Shown here piece by piece: positions 7,303 to 55,869 of a stretch of DNA of 64,000 bases. The notes beneath the pieces were generated by a model. It was given only the letters and a program-made list of their open reading frames with translations. It did not search any database and was not told where the DNA came from. The translations under genes were made by a program, and so were the position numbers. Where the stretch lies: NCBI GenBank assembly GCA_964291285.2, contig OZ219787.1:1952001-2016000 (forward strand), written 5' to 3'. Within the stretch, counting starts at the first letter, position 1. Each line of letters opens with the position of its first letter. Source of the DNA: Alphaproteobacteria bacterium. GTDB taxonomy: Bacteria; Pseudomonadota; Alphaproteobacteria; Bin95.

Positions 7303-8214
7303 GTGGCCGCGCTCGCACCGATCCGCCATGCGTGGCTGAAGCGCCAGCTTCGGCTCTGGCGGTTCGGCGCCTTGTTCGCGGCGGCGGCGGCGCTGGCGGC
7401 GGTGCTGTATTCGGCGGCGGAACCGTTTGCCGATGGCGGCGACCATGTGGCGCGGGTCCATGTCGAAGGCTTCATTCGCGACGACCGCGCGCTCCGGCGC
7501 CGGCTCGACGAAATCGCCGCGGATGATCGCGCCCGGGCGCTTCTGGTCGTCATCGACAGTACGGGGGGTGCAGCAGCCGCGGCCGAAGCCCTGTATTCCG
7601 CGCTGAGAAGGGTCAGTTCAGCCAAGCCCGTCGCCGCCGTCATGGGTGCGACGGGCGCGTCCGGCGCCTATCTGGTCGCCGTCGGCGCGGACCGGATCTT
7701 CGTGCGGAAGACCACGATCACCGGGTCGATAGGCGTCATTCTGCAGGCGCCCCAGGTCGTCGGGCTCATGGAAAAGCTCGGCATTGACGTGGATGTCGTG
7801 CGCAGCGGGCCGTTGAAGACGGTGCCGAATCCGGTGGAACGATTGACGCCTGCCGGCCGCGCCGCCATCCGGTCGCTGGTGAACGAAATCCACGCTCTGT
7901 TCGTCGATACGGTGGTCGAGCGCCGTCAGCTCACACGGACGGAAGTGCTGGCCCTTGCGGACGGGCGGGTTTTCACCGGGTGGTCGGCCGTCGGGAACGG
8001 CCTCGTCGATGCCATTGGCGGTGAGACTGCGGCGCGCGACTGGCTCGCGGCGGAACATGGCATTGGGCGGACTCTTGCATCGGTTGACCGGGATCCGGAA
8101 CGCAATAAGAACTGGTTGGACCGGATTGCGGGTCGTTTATTCGGACAAGGCACGGCTGCAGAGAGTCTTTTGCTTGACGGGGTATTGGCAGTTTGGCATC
8201 CTGCGCTGCGTTAG
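7303..8214 (+). CDS. sppA: Signal peptide peptidase SppA (S49)
   Basis: GTG after GGAGGA; N-terminal TM segment, [21 protein letters not shown]; follows rpsA. Confidence 0.88.
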
Positions 8215-13748: not shown

Positions 13749-13751
13749 AGA

Positions 13752-13796
13752 TTTATTTCCTGAATGGGCTTGCAATTCGCCGCGCCCGGACTATAT
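13752..13796 (+). promoter_or_regulatory. Promoter-like element (CTTGCA-N16-CTATAT) with an AT-rich upstream tract, facing a non-coding region
   Basis: TTTATTTCCTGAA at 13752-13764, CTTGCA at 13769-13774, CTATAT at 13791-13796; fits alphaproteobacterial RpoD/RpoH consensus. Confidence 0.55.
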
Positions 13797-13944
13797 TGCC
13801 TCTTGCGTCATGGCATGATTTTCAAACCCGCTTTCGCGCCGTTCGGGGCAGAACAGGGGCGCGGGGGCAGACAGGACAGGTGCGCCCGCCCGCATGCCCG
13901 CAAACGCGAATATCCCGGTATTGTGTCCGTGAGGTTCGACGGTT

Positions 13945-14349
13945 TCAGCGGAAAGTGTCCGAAGAGGTTGAGTCGGTCCGGCGCGAATTCGCCGGCGGCC
14001 GGCCGATTCGCCGCTCGACGCCGTGGCGTTTGAGGAAGCGGTTCATCGCGCTGCGGCTGAAGACGAGGCCCTGCTCGCGAAGAGCCGCGCACAACGCATT
14101 TGCGGGCAGGTCCGGGTCCGCCTCCAGCAGGGCGAATATCCGGTCCCGCTCCGCCTCGATTCTCCAGGCGCGGGTCCTGCCGGTCCGCCCCTTCGGCCGC
14201 AGATGGCCGCGCGCGCGTTCCAGCCGCCGCCAGCCGGCGATGGTGCCCACGCCGACGCGGAACAGCCGGGCCGCCTCCGCCCGGGTCATCCCCTCCGCCA
14301 GCGCCGCCATCACCCGCTCCCTGAGTTCCACGGGAAGCGCCTTGCCCAT
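13945..14349 (-). CDS. IS630-transposase-derived DNA-binding protein (HTH + winged HTH only, no DDE domain)
   Basis: MGKALPVELRERVMAALAEGMTRAEAARLFRVGVGTIAGW resembles IS630 OrfA; GAGGAGG RBS; no A-rich frameshift run and no downstream OrfB. Confidence 0.75.
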   Translation of the reverse strand: MGKALPVELRERVMAALAEGMTRAEAARLFRVGVGTIAGWRRLERARGHLRPKGRTGRTRAWRIEAERDRIFALLEADPDLPANALCAALREQGLVFSRSAMNRFLKRHGVERRIGRPPANSRRTDSTSSDTFR

Positions 14350-14390
14350 ATCCGTCCTGCCCTCCTCGTCCGGTGGCGGGAGGCGCTATA

Positions 14391-14405
14391 GAACAAATTT
14401 AGCAC
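14391..14405 (-). promoter_or_regulatory. Putative LexA (alpha-type SOS) box
   Basis: GAAC-AAATTTA-GCAC, one mismatch to GAAC-N7-GAAC, in the 17-bp spacer of a TTCATA/TATAGC promoter candidate, about 42 bp upstream of the ATG. Confidence 0.6.
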
Positions 14406-14440
14406 AATATGAAGACACCACTCTTCCCGCCACAACCTCG

Positions 14441-14487
14441 TCCGCAAGCTCCAGGCAGGCTCCTTCGGCAAGCCCAGGGCAGGCCCC
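14441..14487. repeat. Degenerate tandem copies of a CCTTCGACAAGCTCAGG-type REP-like repeat
   Basis: CCTTCGGCAAGCCCAGGGCAGGC matches 52447-52469 at 20/23 positions; a weaker copy precedes it. Confidence 0.55.
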
Positions 14488-14549
14488 TCTTCGTCACCCC
14501 GGCCTCCGATCCGTGAATCCAGTAGACGTATCGGCGGGGCGCGGCTCGG

Positions 14550-15107
14550 TCAGGGCCAGAGGGCGCCGAGGGGGAAGGCCACTGCCTCGAAGGGCGGAAG
14601 GGACACCGGCTCGTCCTCCCGTGCCGCGCCGGCGGGCGTCCATGCGCCGTCTCCGAGCGCGAACGCCTCCAGGGTCCGGGCGGACGGATCGACGAGCCAG
14701 AGATGGCCGACCCCCTCCCGCGCATAGACCGGGCGCTTCTCCTCAAGGTCGAATTTCCGCGTCGAGGGGGAGAGGATTTCGCACACCCAGTCGGGCGGCA
14801 GGGTGAAATAAGGCGTATCCGGGTAGTCGGGCATCCGTTCCCGGCGCCAGCCGGCGAGGTCCGGCACCAGGATGTCCTCGCCGAAATGGAATTCCGGCTC
14901 AGCGACAATCCACCAGCCGCCCGGTCCGCCCCGGCCTTTCTGGAACGGGCTGACCAACTCGTCGCCGAGCGACAACCCCGCCAGCGCATGCCGGCTGGCC
15001 GGCCTCCGCTGGAGGTGCAGCACGCCGTCCACGATCTCCGCCACCATATGGGGCGGCGCATCGAGCACGTCCCGGTAGCTCGCCCTGCGGGCTGCCTTCG
15101 CCTTCAT
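14550..15107 (-). CDS. Uma2-family (PD-(D/E)XK) endonuclease-like protein
   Basis: AEIVDGVL, GGWWIVAEPE, LVPDLAGWR, PDWVCEILSPST, YAREGVGHLWLVDP. Confidence 0.92.
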   Translation of the reverse strand: MKAKAARRASYRDVLDAPPHMVAEIVDGVLHLQRRPASRHALAGLSLGDELVSPFQKGRGGPGGWWIVAEPEFHFGEDILVPDLAGWRRERMPDYPDTPYFTLPPDWVCEILSPSTRKFDLEEKRPVYAREGVGHLWLVDPSARTLEAFALGDGAWTPAGAAREDEPVSLPPFEAVAFPLGALWP

Positions 15108-15202
15108 GCCGTCCGCTCCGCTCGCCGATGCCGCCCCACGCTACGCCCGCGCGGCCGAACCGTCACGGCGCCGCAAGCGGTCGCCCTTGCCATGGCGACC
15201 GC

Positions 15203-15231
15203 TTGCGGCGCGTAGCGCGACGCGCTACAGT
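15203..15231 (+). promoter_or_regulatory. higBA promoter with palindromic operator
   Basis: TTGCGG-N17-TACAGT, overlapped by the perfect palindrome GTAGCGCG-A-CGCGCTAC (15212-15228); ATG 6 bp after the -10. Confidence 0.7.
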
Positions 15232-15237
15232 GCCTCG

Positions 15238-15510
15238 ATGAAGGTCAGGCACAGGGGATTGCGAGCGCTGCACGAACGGGACGATGCTGCGCGGCTGCCC
15301 GCCGGTCTCGCACCGCGGCTGCGGCGCATCCTGTTCCGGCTGCAGGAAGCGGCGCATCCGCGCGATGCCGACGCACCGGGATTCCGGCTGCATCCCCTGA
15401 AGGGCGACCGTGCCGGCCAATGGAGCGTCCGCGTCTCCGGCAATTGGCGCGTGGTGTTCCGCTTCGAGGACGGTGAGGCCGTGGATGTGGACCTGGTCGA
15501 CTACCATTGA
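15238..15510 (+). CDS. higB: HigB-family toxin (RelE/ParE superfamily)
   Basis: RHRGL...RLHPLKGDRAGQWSVRVSGNWRVVFRF...VDLVDYH. Confidence 0.92.
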   Translation: MKVRHRGLRALHERDDAARLPAGLAPRLRRILFRLQEAAHPRDADAPGFRLHPLKGDRAGQWSVRVSGNWRVVFRFEDGEAVDVDLVDYH

Positions 15511-15530
15511 CTGCGAGGGAGCGCGGAACC

Positions 15531-15818
15531 ATGAACGAGACTATCAGCGAACGTGTCGGCCCCATGCCGAACCCGCCGCACCTGGGCGAACTGGTCCGCG
15601 AGAGCATGGAAGAGGCCGGCTGGAACGTCACCCAGACGGCGGATCGTCTGCGCTGCGAGCGGGGCACGCTGTCGCGCCTGCTGAACGGCAAGGCAGGCCT
15701 GTCGGCAAACATGGCGCTGGCGCTGGAAGCCATCGGCTGGGGCACCGCCGAACACTGGATGCGGATGCAGGCAAGCTACGAACTGGCCCAAGCCCGCCGC
15801 AACCGGGCCGCCGCCTGA
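15531..15818 (+). CDS. higA: HigA-family antitoxin (XRE HTH)
   Basis: MPNPPHLGELVRE...TLSRLLNGKAGLSANMALAL...AEHWMRMQASYEL; follows the toxin. Confidence 0.92.
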   Translation: MNETISERVGPMPNPPHLGELVRESMEEAGWNVTQTADRLRCERGTLSRLLNGKAGLSANMALALEAIGWGTAEHWMRMQASYELAQARRNRAAA

Positions 15819-15828
15819 CGGCTTTTTT

Positions 15829-15884
15829 CGTCGCGAGGCCCCGGCTCCCCCGCGCACCGGCGGGGGAGCCGGGGCCTCGCGACG
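15829..15884. repeat. Perfect 25-bp inverted repeat with a 6-nt loop
   Basis: CGTCGCGAGGCCCCGGCTCCCCCGC-gcaccg-GCGGGGGAGCCGGGGCCTCGCGACG. Confidence 0.9.
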
Positions 15885-16010
15885 CCGGGGTACAGCCTTT
15901 CGACGCCGCCGCAAGCCGCCCAAAGCCCCGGAGCGCGGCTGGGTCTGCCTTAGGTCGCCGGCGCGTCCCCGTCCATCACGCCGGCGGCCGGTCTTACCGC
16001 CGCCGCCCGC

Positions 16011-16331
16011 TCACACCACCGAGTCGAGCCACTGCTTGAGGGCGCTCTTGGGCATGGCGCCGACGCGCTGGGCGACCATTTCGCCGTCGCGGAAGACCAT
16101 GAGGGTCGGGATGCCGCGCACGCCGAGCTCGCCGGGGGTCTTCGGGTTGTCGTCGATATCGAGTTTCACGACGTCGAGGCGCTCTTCCATCTCGGACGCG
16201 ATGTCTTCCAGGAAGGGCGCGATCTGCTTGCAGGGGCCGCACCATTCGGCCCAGAAATCGACCACGACGGGCTTGGCCGCCTGCCTTACGTCCTCGTCGA
16301 AACTCGCATCCGTCGTGTGCCGCGTGGCCAT
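16011..16331 (-). CDS. trxA: Thioredoxin
   Basis: DFWAEWCGPCK active site; follows addA. Confidence 0.97.
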   Translation of the reverse strand: MATRHTTDASFDEDVRQAAKPVVVDFWAEWCGPCKQIAPFLEDIASEMEERLDVVKLDIDDNPKTPGELGVRGIPTLMVFRDGEMVAQRVGAMPKSALKQWLDSVV

Positions 16332-54433: not shown

Positions 54434-54543
54434 TGTCCGCCCCCTTCCTTCGACGCCCGCCGCCGTTCCCGGCTCCCGGTCCAGCCTAACACATGCCGCC
54501 GCCAGCGCCGGAGGGTTGCAACGATCCCGGATGGATTTATTTT

Positions 54544-54558
54544 GTTCTTTATTTGTGC
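54544..54558 (+). promoter_or_regulatory. Putative LexA (alpha-type SOS) box
   Basis: GTTC-TTTATTT-GTGC, one mismatch to GTTC-N7-GTTC, in an AT-rich island about 35 bp upstream of ATG 54593. Confidence 0.6.
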
Positions 54559-54592
54559 TTTTATGTGTGAAATCGCAGCGGGAGGCGCCGGC

Positions 54593-55291
54593 ATGGCGAA
54601 GGCCTATTCCCCCGACCTGCGCAAGCGGGTCCTTGCAGCCGTGGCGGAAGGGATGCCGCTTGCGGAGGCGGCGGAGCGGTTCCGGGTCAGCGTGCCGAGC
54701 ATCGTGCGCTGGCGCGCGCTCGAACGCGGGGGGCGGGGCGTCGGGCCGAAACCGTTCGCCGGGGGCCGGCGGCCGGTGCGGGTCGAGGCGGCGCGGGATA
54801 CCATCCTCGCCCTCCTGCGCGAAAATCCGGGCCTCTCTACCGAAGCCCTGCGCGCGGCGCTGGCGAAGCGCGGCCTCGTCTTCAGCTACGGCTCGCTCTA
54901 CCGTTTCCGCCAACGCCACGGCGTCCGGCGCCGCGAAGACCGCTGCGAGGCGCGGGTGGGAGCGGCGCGGGAGGCGATCTTCGCCCTTATGAGAGGAAAT
55001 CCGGGCCTCCCGACCCGCGCGCTCCGCGCAGCCCTGGCGGAGCGCGGCTTCGTCCTGGACTACGGCACCCTCCACCGGTTTCTCGCGCGCCACGGTTTGA
55101 AGGGCAAGAAGGCGGGCCGGCAGGACGGTCCGGCTGCCGGAAACGGCCGTACCGGCCCCCGGGCTCTTGCCGACGACCTGCGGCAGCGGATCGTTGCAGC
55201 CGTGGCGGCGGGGATGTCCTATGCGGAGGCGGGCCGGTTGTTCCGCGTCAACCCGGTCACCATCGCCCGCTGGCACGGGCGCCGGCGGTAA
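54593..55291 (+). CDS. IS630-transposase-derived multi-HTH protein (HTH-wHTH-wHTH-HTH, no DDE domain)
   Basis: MAKAYSPDLRKRVLAAVAEGM... IS630 OrfA-like start; internal duplication (ILALLRENPGLST / IFALMRGNPGLPT); C-terminal second HTH (DDLRQRIVAAVAAGMSYAEAGRLFRV); GGAGG RBS; 232 aa. Confidence 0.78.
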   Translation: MAKAYSPDLRKRVLAAVAEGMPLAEAAERFRVSVPSIVRWRALERGGRGVGPKPFAGGRRPVRVEAARDTILALLRENPGLSTEALRAALAKRGLVFSYGSLYRFRQRHGVRRREDRCEARVGAAREAIFALMRGNPGLPTRALRAALAERGFVLDYGTLHRFLARHGLKGKKAGRQDGPAAGNGRTGPRALADDLRQRIVAAVAAGMSYAEAGRLFRVNPVTIARWHGRRR

Positions 55292-55330
55292 AGCGGGGCA
55301 GCGGGCGGCCTGCCTGCCGCCCGCGATCGG

Positions 55331-55613
55331 CCGAAACGGATTTTCGAGGCCCGCCCCGAGGGCGCCTGCGCTCGACCGAAACGGACTGTTCGCACCGGCC
55401 TCCGAGGCAACCCATGCCGGGGCGGAGACGCCGAATCCGGCCGTCCGGAAACAGGGCGATGCTCAACCGAAACGGATTTTCGAGGCCTGCCCCGAGGGCC
55501 CTGCGCTCGACCGAAGCCGGCTGTTCGCACCGGCCTCCGAGGCAACCCATGCCGGGGCGGAGACGCCGAATCCGGCCGTCCGGAAACAGGGCGATGCTCA
55601 ACCGAAACGGATT
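55331..55613 (+). repeat. Tandem direct repeat: two 135-136-bp units plus a 12-bp third start
   Basis: Units begin CCGAAACGGATT at 55331, 55467 and 55602 and are nearly identical. Confidence 0.92.
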
Positions 55614-55761
55614 GCCGCCGGCGGCGGGCGCACGTCGCCGGTTGCTCTGCGGGAGCCCCTTTCGCCCAGGCTTTCCTGCCGCAGCGATCCGCCGCGACCG
55701 TTCGTCAGGGTGGCAAGTCCTTCATCCGCTTCGTCCCCGCCCGTTCCTCCGGTCCGCCCCT

Positions 55762-55805
55762 ATATGGGGGCGTTGTTCCTGCATGGCAAGGTTTCAGGGA
55801 AAAAA
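55762..55805 (-). promoter_or_regulatory. Promoter-like element (CTTGCC-N16-CCCATAT), divergent from sdhC, facing the repeat tract
   Basis: Minus strand reads TTTTTTCCCTGAAAC-CTTGCC-N16-CCCATAT; overlaps the palindrome TCAGGG-N8-CCCTGA (55794-55813). Confidence 0.5.
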
Positions 55806-55869
55806 TACCCTGATATTCCGGCAGGCGGTCCGGGACGGGCGCGGCGGCCGCCGGCCGGCGGCGCTCCGA

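What the first reader, a model, noticed from the sequence alone, without database searches (positions are those of the whole stretch)
13752..14405. Candidate new system: recurring module of SOS box, catalytic-less IS630 HTH gene, motif repeats and convergent promoter (copy 1; copy 2 at 54544-55813)
Seen in sequence: two loci about 40 kb apart, in unrelated gene contexts, share four elements in the same order. These are (i) a GTTC/GTGC-N7 box 35-42 bp upstream of the ATG; (ii) an intact ORF with a good RBS made only of IS630-OrfA-like HTH and winged-HTH domains; (iii) CTCRACC-N4-CGGA motifs at or after the 3' end; (iv) a convergent CTTGC-N17-C(T/C)ATAT promoter-like element preceded by TTTWTTTCC(C)TGAA. 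The two proteins are clearly diverged, with no DDE domain, slippery A-run or obvious terminal inverted repeats. Established: IS630 elements need the DDE OrfB, and alphaproteobacterial LexA binds GTTC-N7-GTTC. Inference: these are domesticated, DNA-damage-inducible DNA-binding proteins paired with a counter-transcript or cognate sites, rather than random IS debris.
Basis: partly seen in the sequence, partly recalled or inferred. Interest (0 to 1): 0.85.

Follow-up and report, generated by a model that had tools for sequence, protein, structure and literature searches.

The report
Transposase-less IS630 gene modules, multi-copy
The two loci are real members of a roughly 45-copy family, confined to one genus, of insertion-sequence remnants that kept only the DNA-binding half of an IS630 transposase together with a conserved promoter and non-coding arm, and that appear to be kept by selection.

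Summary
All four elements are present at both loci. The finding is much larger than reported. The genome holds 45 loci encoding IS630-OrfA-like paired-domain proteins, 43 of them intact, and none lies beside a DDE domain.

Seven loci are "A-type" and include both window copies. They carry a GTTC-N7-GTTC-like box in the gene's promoter. Downstream lies an inverted non-coding arm: an inward-facing promoter, a conserved core and short repeats.

The other 38 are "B-type". In 30 of them the same core is the 5' leader. Ten carry a perfect GTTC-N7-GTTC over the -10, resembling the boxes at lexA and an imuA-like gene.

The proteins are 44-51% identical to OrfA of active 1057-bp IS630 elements in sister genomes, so the origin is IS630.

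These are not plain debris:
- Copy 1 is syntenic in 6 of 16 congeners, with dN/dS of 0.18-0.34.
- The odd 232-aa protein of copy 2 is conserved in at least 3 congeners.

Two B-type units are discrete insertions with empty sites in relatives, and show no inverted ends or TA duplication.

SOS control, transcription of the arm and protein binding to the repeats are all inferred. Support for an RNA structure is weak.

Verdict: a new variant of a known kind, of moderate to high interest.

The parts
13750..13797 (+). Copy 1, arm promoter. An A/T-rich UP-like stretch (GATTTATTTCCTGAA) is followed by TTGCAA-16-TATATT, facing into the module and convergent with the HTH gene.
   Evidence: The promoter scan calls it. 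It is the best-conserved intergenic stretch across 7 orthologous loci. The same layout is seen in 6 of 7 A-type paralogs.
13804..13990 (+). Copy 1, non-coding arm in the direction of its promoter. It holds a degenerate 5' box (about 13812-13823), the 3' box ACAGGACAGGTGCGCCCGCC (13870-13890), then the short-repeat and hairpin region. It overlaps the 3' end of the ORF in antisense.
   Evidence: An nhmmer core hit lies at window 13832-13896 with E 1e-4 genome-wide and 1.9e-6 locally. Orthologs in L004, L006 and L007 keep CATGACCTGA. No terminator-like site was found.
13958..13972 (-). Copy 1, CTCAACC-N4-CGGA motif. In arm orientation it is part of CCGAAGAGGTTGAG.
   Evidence: Found. It is conserved at DNA level in 7 orthologs although the protein tails differ there.
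13945..14349 (-). Copy 1, gene for a 134-aa paired-domain (two three-helix bundles) DNA-binding protein of the IS630 OrfA type.
   Evidence: Supported. It is 44% identical to OrfA of an active IS630 element. dN/dS is 0.18-0.34. The model has pLDDT 76, and PAX6/Pax5 paired domains, SETMAR, Mos1 and Tc3 are among the best fold matches.
14385..14415 (-). Copy 1, gene promoter region with the LexA-like direct repeat GTGC-N7-GTTC (14391-14405), followed by a CTATAG -10-like hexamer.
   Evidence: Supported. In orthologs the distal half-site varies (ATTC, GTTC and others). One ortholog (L006) has a perfect GTTC-N7-GTTC, and the GTTC next to the -10 is invariant in the 5 orthologs that reach that far.
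54534..54592 (+). Copy 2, left edge of the module and gene promoter, with GTTC-N7-GTGC (54544-54558) and the RBS.
   Evidence: Supported. Homology with the module-less genome G007 ends at about 54533. Orthologs keep the GTTC, with GTGC or ATTC as the second half-site.
54593..55291 (+). Copy 2, gene for a 232-aa protein with the layout HTH-wHTH-wHTH-HTH, an internally duplicated OrfA type.
   Evidence: Supported. Intact 232-245-aa orthologs at 69-77% identity are present in G014, G010 and G005.
55331..55613 (+). Copy 2, short-repeat region of the arm. It is a 135-bp tandem duplication (2.1 copies) carrying three CTCRACC-N4-CGGA motifs. In arm orientation the repeat reads AATCCGTTTCGGTTGAGC.
   Evidence: Supported. 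The roughly 24-nt repeat occurs 2-4 times in orthologs, with varying number and spacing.
55620..55730 (-). Copy 2, core of the arm. The 3' box (CCGGCGACGTGCGCCCGCC) lies at about 55623-55645 and a degenerate 5' box region at about 55703-55727.
   Evidence: Based on a manual alignment with the other A-type arms and with orthologs. It is not detected by the nhmmer profile.
55760..55857 (-). Copy 2, arm promoter (TTGCCA-17-CATATA, preceded by TTTTTTCCCTGAA), convergent with the gene, and the right edge of the module.
   Evidence: Supported. It is conserved in G014, G010 and G005. Homology with G007 resumes at about 55858. It is not called by the simple promoter scan.

Best explanation
Both loci are A-type members of a genus-restricted family of about 45 copies per genome. 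The members are derivatives of an IS630-family insertion sequence that have lost orfB.

Each module keeps three parts:
1. The OrfA gene, encoding a bipartite paired-type DNA-binding protein.
2. A sigma-70-type promoter. In many members its spacer or -10 carries the alphaproteobacterial LexA-type direct repeat.
3. A non-coding arm of about 0.3 kb. It consists of an inward-facing promoter, a conserved core and 2-4 member-specific short direct repeats. The core has a 5' box, RATGACCTGAC, about 30 nt after the -10, and a 3' box, ACRGGnnAGGTGCGCGCGCC, 74-105 nt further on. The repeats resemble IS630 termini.

In B-type modules the arm is the 5' leader of the gene. In A-type modules (the two in the window) the arm lies downstream and inverted, like the right end of an IS. 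Its promoter therefore fires convergently into the 3' end of the gene.

Proposed working, all inferred:
- LexA represses the gene promoter and DNA damage relieves this.
- The protein binds its own repeats, as a transposase N-terminal domain binds its ends. This gives autoregulation and possibly acts in trans on related IS630 ends.
- In A-type modules the arm's transcript adds antisense or collision control.

Shown: the anatomy, the copy number, the IS630 origin, purifying selection and synteny for the two window copies, and insertion polymorphism for two B-type units.

Not shown: transcription, LexA or protein binding, any phenotype, and how the units spread.
For: **Family size and integrity**
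- tblastn finds 46 hits, which are 45 loci.
- 43 of 45 ORFs are at least 110 aa.
- Pairwise identity ranges from 34 to 100%, with a median of 55%.

**No DDE**
- There are 32 DDE_3 matches, all elsewhere.
- The nearest lies about 0.9 kb from one locus, in a separate 1169-bp IS630 copy whose end I compute at about 180 nt from that ORF.

**IS630 origin**
- NCBIfam's IS630 model matches at positions 2-122.
- Active 1056-1057-bp elements in G007 and G010 are TA-flanked, multi-copy and carry orfA plus orfB.
- Their OrfA is 44% identical to copy 1 and 51% to copy 2.
- In the 1.84-billion-protein library only 1 of the best 150 hits exceeds 300 aa.
- The fold is that of a paired domain.

**The arm is linked to the gene**
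- 34 of 38 nhmmer core hits lie within about 330 nt of an HTH locus. Three of the four orphans are explained by IS insertions or loss of the gene.
- The core is a leader in 30 of 38 B-type loci and convergent in 4 of 7 A-type loci by nhmmer, or 6 of 7 by eye.

**Boxes**
- 10 of the 15 perfect GTTC-N7-GTTC sites in the genome with at least 6 of 7 A/T spacer bases lie in unit promoters.
- Three more lie at lexA, an imuA-like gene and an S24 LexA-like gene.
- 6 of 7 A-type genes have one mismatch.
- The motif itself is established for alpha-Proteobacteria (PMC3323433; passage read).

**Selection**
- Copy 1 is syntenic after folC in 6 of 16 congeners, with 7 intact ORFs and 21 pairwise dN/dS values of 0.18-0.34.
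- The copy 2 architecture, box, arm promoter and repeats are conserved in G014, G010 and G005.

**Repeats resemble IS ends**
- CGGTTGAG occurs in the arms and in the left end of the resident 1169-bp IS630.
- CATGAYCTGAC occurs at the very end of the G007 element.
Against: - There is no expression data. No RNA run holds the stretch, so the promoters are predictions.
- Both window boxes deviate from GTTC-N7-GTTC by one base, and the loose pattern is not enriched in the window.
- In B-type units the box overlaps the -10. Conservation of the promoter alone, or an operator for the HTH protein itself, could explain it.
- 14 of 38 B-type units have no better than 2 mismatches, and 3 have no better than 3.
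- Similarity of the core to IS termini is short. nhmmer of the core profile against the active elements is not significant, with a best E of 0.4.
- No full-length element with such long arms was found.
- Purifying selection was measured for copy 1 only. For copy 2 there are just intact orthologs.
- Two B-type units are recent insertions. That fits selfish spread as well as host function.
Confidence: 0.6

Rival explanations
1. The modules are non-autonomous mobile elements that are still active. They spread as discrete units of 0.8-1.3 kb, mobilised in trans by an IS630 OrfB or by a host or SOS recombination function. The OrfA protein and the arm serve the element, not the host.
For: - The unit at G000 C5:113.5 kb is an insert of about 790 bp found in 1 of 17 genomes. 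At least 6 congeners have an uninterrupted site.
- The unit at C3:2039 kb lies in a 1.25-kb insert present in 2 of 17 genomes, with 5 empty sites. Related units sit about 1.6 kb away in G007, G012 and G014.
- Up to 43 matches per genome, and 14 of 16 congeners have matches.
- The copy 2 module is one indel relative to G007.
- Copy 1 sits in a 2.27-kb island between folC and trxA.
Against: - There is no pair of inverted ends and no TA duplication at either analysed insertion. One is flanked by a direct repeat of about 43 bp of target sequence; the other replaces about 20-25 nt.
- Apart from two segmental duplications, the closest paralogs within the genome are only 82-88% identical over about 700 bp, so there has been no recent burst.
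- Homology between paralogs ends at the promoter and at the stop codon.
- Copy 1 and copy 2 are stable across several species.
Confidence: 0.2
2. The modules are neutral IS debris: decaying left or right halves of old IS630 copies with no present function. The shared motifs are merely inherited.
For: - The origin is IS630, and the modules lack a DDE domain, paired inverted ends and a TA duplication.
- Two loci are truncated, at 47 and 73 aa.
- Several units are disrupted by other IS elements.
- Presence in the genus is patchy.
Against: - 43 of 45 ORFs are intact despite a median of only 55% identity between paralogs.
- dN/dS is 0.18-0.34.
- The promoters, the 10-nt 5' box (invariant in 15 of 15 aligned group-1 leaders) and the 3' box are conserved while the sequence between them varies.
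- The unusual 232-aa protein is kept intact in 4 species.
Confidence: 0.1
3. The conserved core is a structured non-coding RNA that works with the paired-domain protein as an RNA-protein pair. It could act as a guide, a scaffold, or a cis-acting switch or attenuator that gates transcription into the gene. Transcription runs in sense in B-type and in antisense in A-type modules.
For: - The distance from the -10 to the 5' box is constant at 27-41 nt, even behind two different promoter types.
- A-type arms keep their own strong promoter across paralogs and orthologs.
- In 15 alignable leaders, 4 helices are 95% paired. In the first long hairpin 6 of 9 pairs vary on one side only and stay paired through G-U wobble, which is specific to the sense strand.
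- The covariation score is 0.141 against 0.121 in shuffles, and 5 of 500 shuffles reach it.
Against: - There is no Rfam match, even at E up to 10.
- RNAalifold finds no consensus fold across 20 diverse copies, at -0.6 kcal/mol.
- Within group 1 the covariation term is +0.06, and only 2 of 28 pairs change on both sides.
- Whole-core MFE z-scores average -0.54 against 0.05 +/- 1.4 in controls.
- The hairpin signal is equal on both strands, with z of -0.83 and -0.78.
- The tool's own caveat is that shuffle counts like these arise in 5-25% of unconstrained alignments.
Confidence: 0.1

Closest known systems
IS630-family insertion sequences with orfA/orfB (IS630/Tc1/mariner superfamily). Examples are the active 1056-1057-bp elements in congeners G007 and G010 and the 1169-bp IS630 in this genome.
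   Same: The N-terminal bipartite HTH protein is the same: 44-51% identical to OrfA of the active elements, with a match to the first 122 positions of NCBIfam's IS630 model and a paired-like fold. Short motifs in the arm resemble IS termini.
   Different: The modules have no DDE orfB, no frameshift site leading into one, no pair of terminal inverted repeats and no TA target duplication at the two insertions analysed. They have a conserved core of about 130-150 nt and a LexA-like promoter that the active elements lack.
Alphaproteobacterial SOS (LexA) regulon genes with the GTTC-N7-GTTC direct repeat.
   Same: The direct repeat lies inside or over the promoter. Ten B-type units have a perfect site with an A/T-rich spacer, as do lexA and the imuA-like gene of this genome. 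The motif is given in a passage of PMC3323433.
   Different: The window copies have one mismatch each. No binding or induction data exist. The gene product is a transposase-derived DNA binder, not a repair function. About 20 such promoters in one genome would be an unusually large addition to a LexA regulon.
Transposase-derived repressors and DNA binders: IS1 InsA, IS911 OrfA, KP repressors of the Drosophila P element, eukaryotic Tc1/mariner/pogo domestications such as SETMAR, CENP-B and the Pax paired domain, and LexA control of the Tn5 transposase promoter. These examples are recalled, not taken from any call. For pogo and Tc1/mariner domestication I saw only the search listings of PMC7386202 and PMC13548663.
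   Same: A DNA-binding part of a transposase is expressed without the catalytic domain and could bind transposon ends or its own sites. The fold matches the Pax paired domains and the SETMAR-TIR complex.
   Different: Here the family is bacterial, multi-copy (about 45 per genome), genus-restricted and coupled to a conserved non-coding arm. No repressor activity has been tested.
IR/DR-type Tc1 elements such as Sleeping Beauty, whose long inverted ends each hold two direct-repeat binding sites. This is recalled, not from any call.
   Same: Several similar short sites lie in direct orientation within one arm of about 0.3 kb next to the gene. The arm is upstream and direct in B-type modules and downstream and inverted in A-type modules, as left and right ends would be.
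   Different: No module has both arms, and no full-length parent with such arms was found. The arm also carries an inward-facing promoter.

Membership tests
IS630-family insertion sequence (complete element) | DDE (DDE_3) catalytic domain, in the same ORF or in an orfB reached by a frameshift | tested here: not met
   Pfam and NCBIfam match only the N-terminal HTH part. All 32 DDE_3 matches in the genome lie elsewhere. No conserved downstream coding region is shared among the 45 loci.
IS630-family insertion sequence (complete element) | Terminal inverted repeats and a TA target-site duplication | tested here: not met
   Paralog homology runs only from the promoter to the stop codon. Two insertions with empty sites in relatives show a direct repeat of about 43 bp, or a small target deletion, and no inverted ends. 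True IS630 copies show TA and TIRs.
IS630-family insertion sequence (complete element) | N-terminal bipartite HTH (paired-like) DNA-binding domain of the OrfA type | tested here: met
   NF033545 matches at positions 2-122 with 54.7 and 70.5 bits, below the whole-protein cut-off of 100. Identity to OrfA of active elements is 44-51%. The model has two three-helix bundles, and the best fold match is the PAX6 paired domain at E 7.5e-4.
Alphaproteobacterial LexA (SOS) regulon | [quoted passage not shown] | tested here: inconclusive
   The window copies have one mismatch each. Among A-type loci, 6 of 7 have 1 mismatch and 1 of 7 has 2. Among B-type loci, 10 of 38 are perfect and 11 of 38 have 1 mismatch. 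For comparison, lexA and the imuA-like gene are perfect, and recA has GTTC-N7-ATTC.
Alphaproteobacterial LexA (SOS) regulon | LexA binding and induction by DNA damage | not testable with these tools
   No run on record as RNA holds the stretch.
Any described RNA family (Rfam 15) | Match to a curated covariance model | tested here: not met
   At the gathering threshold the window gives only a tRNA. E-value searches of both loci give nothing below E 0.5, and all hits are far under the gathering scores.
Structured non-coding RNA (new family) | Conserved secondary structure supported by covariation | tested here: inconclusive
   There is no consensus fold across 20 diverse copies. Within 15 close copies the structure is 95% paired, but only 2 of 28 pairs change on both sides and the covariation term is +0.06. 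z-scores are weak and symmetric between strands.
MITE-like non-autonomous IS630 derivative | Two IS-type inverted ends flanking a short internal segment, with many near-identical copies | tested here: not met
   Each module has one arm only. Nearest paralogs are 82-88% identical except for two segmental duplications.

The most novel reading that the evidence does not exclude
The modules are a new kind of SOS-triggered mobile or self-propagating unit that spreads without a DDE transposase. On this reading a paired-domain protein and the transcribed core, acting as an RNA partner or as a folded site, direct insertion of the 0.8-1.3-kb unit with help from host recombination or repair functions. 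This would explain three observations together: discrete insertions without inverted ends or TA duplication, a direct repeat of about 43 bp of target sequence at one junction, and the strict linkage of core and gene.
Probability: 0.1. Interest if true: 0.9.

Novelty: new variant of a known kind. Interest (0 to 1): 0.6.

Why it matters
Domesticated or repressor-type transposase DNA-binding domains are well known in eukaryotes but are hardly documented as large families in bacteria.

Here a single genus carries up to about 43 copies per genome of an orfB-less IS630 derivative. Each has a conserved non-coding core and, in many copies, a promoter that looks LexA-controlled.

If the proteins bind IS630-type ends, the family could be a bank of transposition regulators wired to DNA damage.

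If the units still move, they do so in a way not described for IS630.

Either outcome can be tested with ordinary experiments in a cultured member of the genus.

There is also a practical point for annotation. These genes are easily labelled "IS630 family transposase" although they cannot transpose on their own.

Tried and rejected
**A known RNA family.** Rfam gave nothing at the gathering threshold or by E-value.

**A coding reading of the core.** The 5' box reads as Met-Thr-stop. The GTG in the 3' box is in no consistent frame with the gene: the frames split 9, 8 and 5 among others. I dropped this reading.

**A conserved downstream protein.** A hidden orfB would have shown up in tblastx of the 1.8 kb after each gene. 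No shared coding region appeared.

**A thermodynamic structure signal.** It is weak.

**A 5' hairpin before the 5' box.** There is no signal: mean z is -0.02.

**Homology of the whole core to active IS630 elements.** It is not significant. Only a short terminal match remains.

**Inverted repeats at the ends of the A-type modules.** Only copy 2 shows an imperfect similarity of about 11 nt, and the other A-type copies do not. This was judged by eye.

**Empty-site test for copy 1.** It gave a 2.27-kb island rather than the module alone.

**Expression.** No RNA holder is listed for the stretch. I did not use read laying, because only DNA contigs were on offer.

**Solved structures by sequence.** No hit.

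**Literature.** Three searches found no description of such a bacterial family. The terms were LexA/IS630/SOS/Alphaproteobacteria; GTTC-N7-GTTC; and IS630/domesticated/DNA-binding domain/truncated transposase. I saw only listings, plus passages of PMC3323433. Supplementary files were not consulted.

**Not done.** I ran no genus-wide LexA motif model, no family-wide dN/dS, no covariance-model search and no complex prediction.
Full report
**The observation**

- Copy 1 encodes a 134-aa protein at 13945-14349 (-).
- Copy 2 encodes a 232-aa protein at 54593-55291 (+).
- Pfam and NCBIfam see only the helix-turn-helix part of IS630-type transposases. NCBIfam's IS630 model matches at positions 2-122 of 299, below its whole-protein cut-off.
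- The boxes GTGC-N7-GTTC (14391-14405, -) and GTTC-N7-GTGC (54544-54558, +) are there. The loose pattern is not enriched in the window: 8 found against 9.1 expected.
- CTCRACC-N4-CGGA occurs 4 times against 0.14 expected, always inside the two loci. The three in copy 2 lie in a 135-bp tandem duplication.
- The convergent promoter of copy 1 is called by the scan. That of copy 2 has the same layout with one more spacer base and is not called.

**The family**

The window lies in a 6.13-Mb genome of 5 contigs at 68% G+C.

- tblastn with copy 1 finds 46 hits. These are 45 loci, because one hit is the internal repeat of copy 2.
- 43 of the 45 ORFs are at least 110 aa. Pairwise identity runs from 34 to 100%, with a median of 55%.
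- The genome has 32 DDE_3 matches, none next to these genes. The one nearby match belongs to a separate 1169-bp IS630 copy.
- No shared coding region follows the genes.

Seven loci form an "A-type" group that includes both window copies. Their median identity is 53% within the group and 43% to the rest. The other 38 loci are "B-type".

**The shared non-coding part**

Downstream of 6 of the 7 A-type genes lies a convergent promoter preceded by an A/T-rich stretch. Behind it are conserved boxes.

The same boxes form the 5' leader of B-type genes, in the same direction as the gene. The order of parts is:
1. The promoter.
2. A gap of 27-41 nt.
3. The 5' box, RATGACCTGAC.
4. 74-105 nt of variable G+C-rich hairpins.
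5. The 3' box, ACRGGnnAGGTGCGCGCGCC.
6. 50-200 nt with short direct repeats that differ between paralog groups.
7. The RBS and start codon.

An nhmmer profile of this core finds 38 copies in the genome. Of these, 34 lie within about 330 nt of an HTH gene. Three of the four orphans are explained by other IS insertions or by loss of the gene.

By nhmmer the core is a leader in 30 of 38 B-type loci and convergent in 4 of 7 A-type loci. Eleven loci give no hit, copy 2 among them. The boxes of copy 2 are recognisable only by alignment.

In B-type units this arm sits in front of the gene. In A-type units it sits behind the gene and inverted.

**Origin**

Congeners G007 and G010 carry multi-copy elements of 1056-1057 bp that are 99-100% identical between copies. 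They are TA-flanked, have inverted ends, and carry orfA plus a DDE orfB.

- Their OrfA is 44% identical to copy 1 and 51% to copy 2, as close as the paralogs are to each other.
- In a library of 1.84 billion protein representatives, 1350 proteins match at E up to 0.001. The best 150 are nearly all 82-280 aa, and only 1 exceeds 300 aa.
- The only named relative is a "hypothetical protein" from an uncultured alphaproteobacterium.
- The predicted structure (pLDDT 76) has two three-helix bundles joined by a basic linker, followed by a disordered basic tail.
- The best fold matches are the PAX6 and Pax5 paired domains. The SETMAR-TIR complex, Mos1 and Tc3 rank lower.

Short motifs in the arm resemble IS630 ends:
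- CATGAYCTGAC sits at the very terminus of the G007 element.
- CGGTTGAG occurs in the arms and twice in the left end of the resident 1169-bp IS630.

The core profile as a whole does not match the active elements; the best E is 0.4. I therefore treat the link to IS ends as a lead, not a result.

**The SOS box**

The GTTC-N7-GTTC direct repeat is the published alphaproteobacterial LexA site (PMC3323433; passage read).

- The genome has 111 perfect sites. This is close to the roughly 107 I estimate from base composition (my own arithmetic).
- Of the 15 perfect sites with at least 6 of 7 A/T spacer bases, 10 lie in B-type promoters and overlap the -10.
- Three more lie at lexA, an imuA-like gene and an S24 LexA-like gene.
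- One lies at a methyltransferase gene behind a promoter of the same type, and one is unassigned.
- recA has GTTC-N7-ATTC.

Among B-type units, 10 of 38 have a perfect site, 11 have one mismatch, 14 have two and 3 have three. Among A-type units, 6 of 7 have one mismatch and 1 has two.

In orthologs of copy 1 the GTTC next to the -10 is invariant and the other half-site varies. One ortholog is perfect. In orthologs of copy 2 the first GTTC is invariant.

LexA control is plausible, and more so for B-type than for the window copies. It is not shown. Promoter conservation alone, or an operator for the HTH protein itself, would look the same.

**Selection and stability**

Copy 1 lies after folC in 6 of 16 congeners.
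- All 7 ORFs are intact, at 130-139 aa.
- The 21 pairwise dN/dS values over the first 115 codons are 0.18-0.34.
- The arm promoter and the repeat motif are conserved at DNA level even where the protein tails differ.
- In 5 of the 6 congeners examined that lack it, folC abuts trxA. In this genome a 2.27-kb island (13749-16020) separates them. The island holds the module, a Uma2-like gene and a higB/higA-like pair.

Copy 2 lies before sdhC.
- G014, G010 and G005 keep an intact 232-245-aa protein with the same odd architecture (69-77% identity), the box, the arm promoter and 2-4 copies of the roughly 24-nt repeat.
- G007 lacks the whole 1.32-kb module as one indel.

**Mobility**

Close paralogs share only the stretch from about 15 nt before the -35 to the stop codon, roughly 700 bp, with unrelated flanks. 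Apart from two segmental duplications, the nearest paralogs are 82-88% identical.

Two B-type units are insertion polymorphisms:
- One lies in a 1.25-kb insert present in 2 of 17 genomes, with 5 clean empty sites. It is flanked by a direct repeat of about 43 bp of target sequence.
- The other is an insert of about 790 bp found only in this genome. At least 6 congeners have uninterrupted sites, and about 20-25 nt of target were replaced.

Neither shows inverted ends or a TA duplication. How the units spread is open.

**RNA or DNA element?**

- There is no Rfam match.
- Across 20 diverse cores RNAalifold finds no common fold.
- In 15 alignable leaders from six genomes, four helices are 95% paired. 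In the first long hairpin, 6 of 9 pairs change on one side only and stay paired through wobble.
- Only 2 of 28 pairs change on both sides, and the covariation term is about zero. 5-7 of 500 shuffles reach the observed values, which the tool warns can happen without any constraint.
- MFE z-scores are weak and equal on both strands.
- The fixed distance from two different promoter types to the 5' box, and the separately conserved promoter of A-type arms, argue that the arm is transcribed. This is inference.
- No run on record as RNA holds the stretch.

**Conclusion**

The best reading is a genus-restricted family of IS630 derivatives that have lost orfB. Each is an OrfA-type DNA binder with a probably LexA-gated promoter and an arm of IS-end-like sites behind an inward-facing promoter.

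The two window copies are old, syntenic and under purifying selection. Other members are recent insertions.

I put 0.6 on this description with an autoregulatory or IS-regulatory role. I put 0.2 on still-active non-autonomous elements, 0.1 on neutral debris, and 0.1 on the core being a structured RNA partner.

The finding is a new variant of a known kind.

Noticed in passing
window 13749-16020: A 2.27-kb island separates folC from trxA, whereas the two genes abut in 5 of 6 congeners examined. Besides the module it holds a Uma2-family-like gene (14550-15107, -) and a higB/higA-like toxin-antitoxin pair (15106-15818, +).
   Followed up: partly
window 14550-15107 (-): The Uma2-like gene belongs to a large multi-copy family. 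The DNA search with this stretch hit dozens of places in every congener at 68-85% identity.
   Followed up: no
window 8098-8112 (-): A perfect GTTC-N7-GTTC (GTTCTTATTGCGTTC) lies close to the start of an IHF/HU-like ORF of 133 aa on the + strand. It is not an obvious SOS gene.
   Followed up: no
G000 C1:958219 (-), outside the window: A promoter of the B-type kind (CTTGAC-N17 with GTTCGTTTTAAGTTC) lies about 214 nt before a 279-aa DNA methyltransferase-like gene. This promoter type is therefore not confined to the HTH units.
   Followed up: no
G000 C1:992446 (-), outside the window: A second LexA-like protein (HTH plus S24 peptidase, 220 aa) has its own GTTC-N7-GTTC 47 nt upstream, in addition to the canonical lexA at C3:1242756.
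   Followed up: no
G000, e.g. C3:200171 and C3:952730 (outside the window): A true IS630 of 1169 bp has a TA duplication, ACCAGCGG termini and orfA (177 aa) plus a frameshifted orfB. The six copies aligned are 99.7-100% identical, and 13 DDE_3 matches share its 91.9-bit or 89.8-bit score.
   Followed up: partly
L033:1424-2479, L035:1437-2493, L037:1435-2491 (G007, G010): Active IS630-family elements of 1056-1057 bp are present in multiple 99-100% identical copies. Their OrfA is the closest full-element relative of the window proteins.
   Followed up: yes
L049:2531-2802 (G000 C3:2039.8 kb): A REP-like or MITE-like repeat lies downstream of a B-type unit, with copies at 78-91% identity elsewhere in G000 and in G002.
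   Followed up: no
L049:1543-1585 and 2832-2874: An imperfect direct repeat of about 43 bp flanks the 1.25-kb insert. It duplicates the 5' end of the downstream gene, and the left copy has diverged. The shared part contains GCATGA, reminiscent of the core's 5' box.
   Followed up: partly
G000 C3:2121747 (-) and C3:1168947 (-): Two cores are cut off from their genes by other insertion sequences. One is an IS1595-like transposase gene inside the core. The other is an insertion of about 1.1 kb between the core and the HTH gene, and it is 99.7% identical to sequence upstream of another unit.
   Followed up: partly
L062 (G007 C3:2638300-2639800): At the site where G000 carries the C5 unit, G007 has a 421-aa adenylate/guanylate-cyclase-like gene instead. 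The spot therefore varies for reasons unrelated to the family.
   Followed up: no
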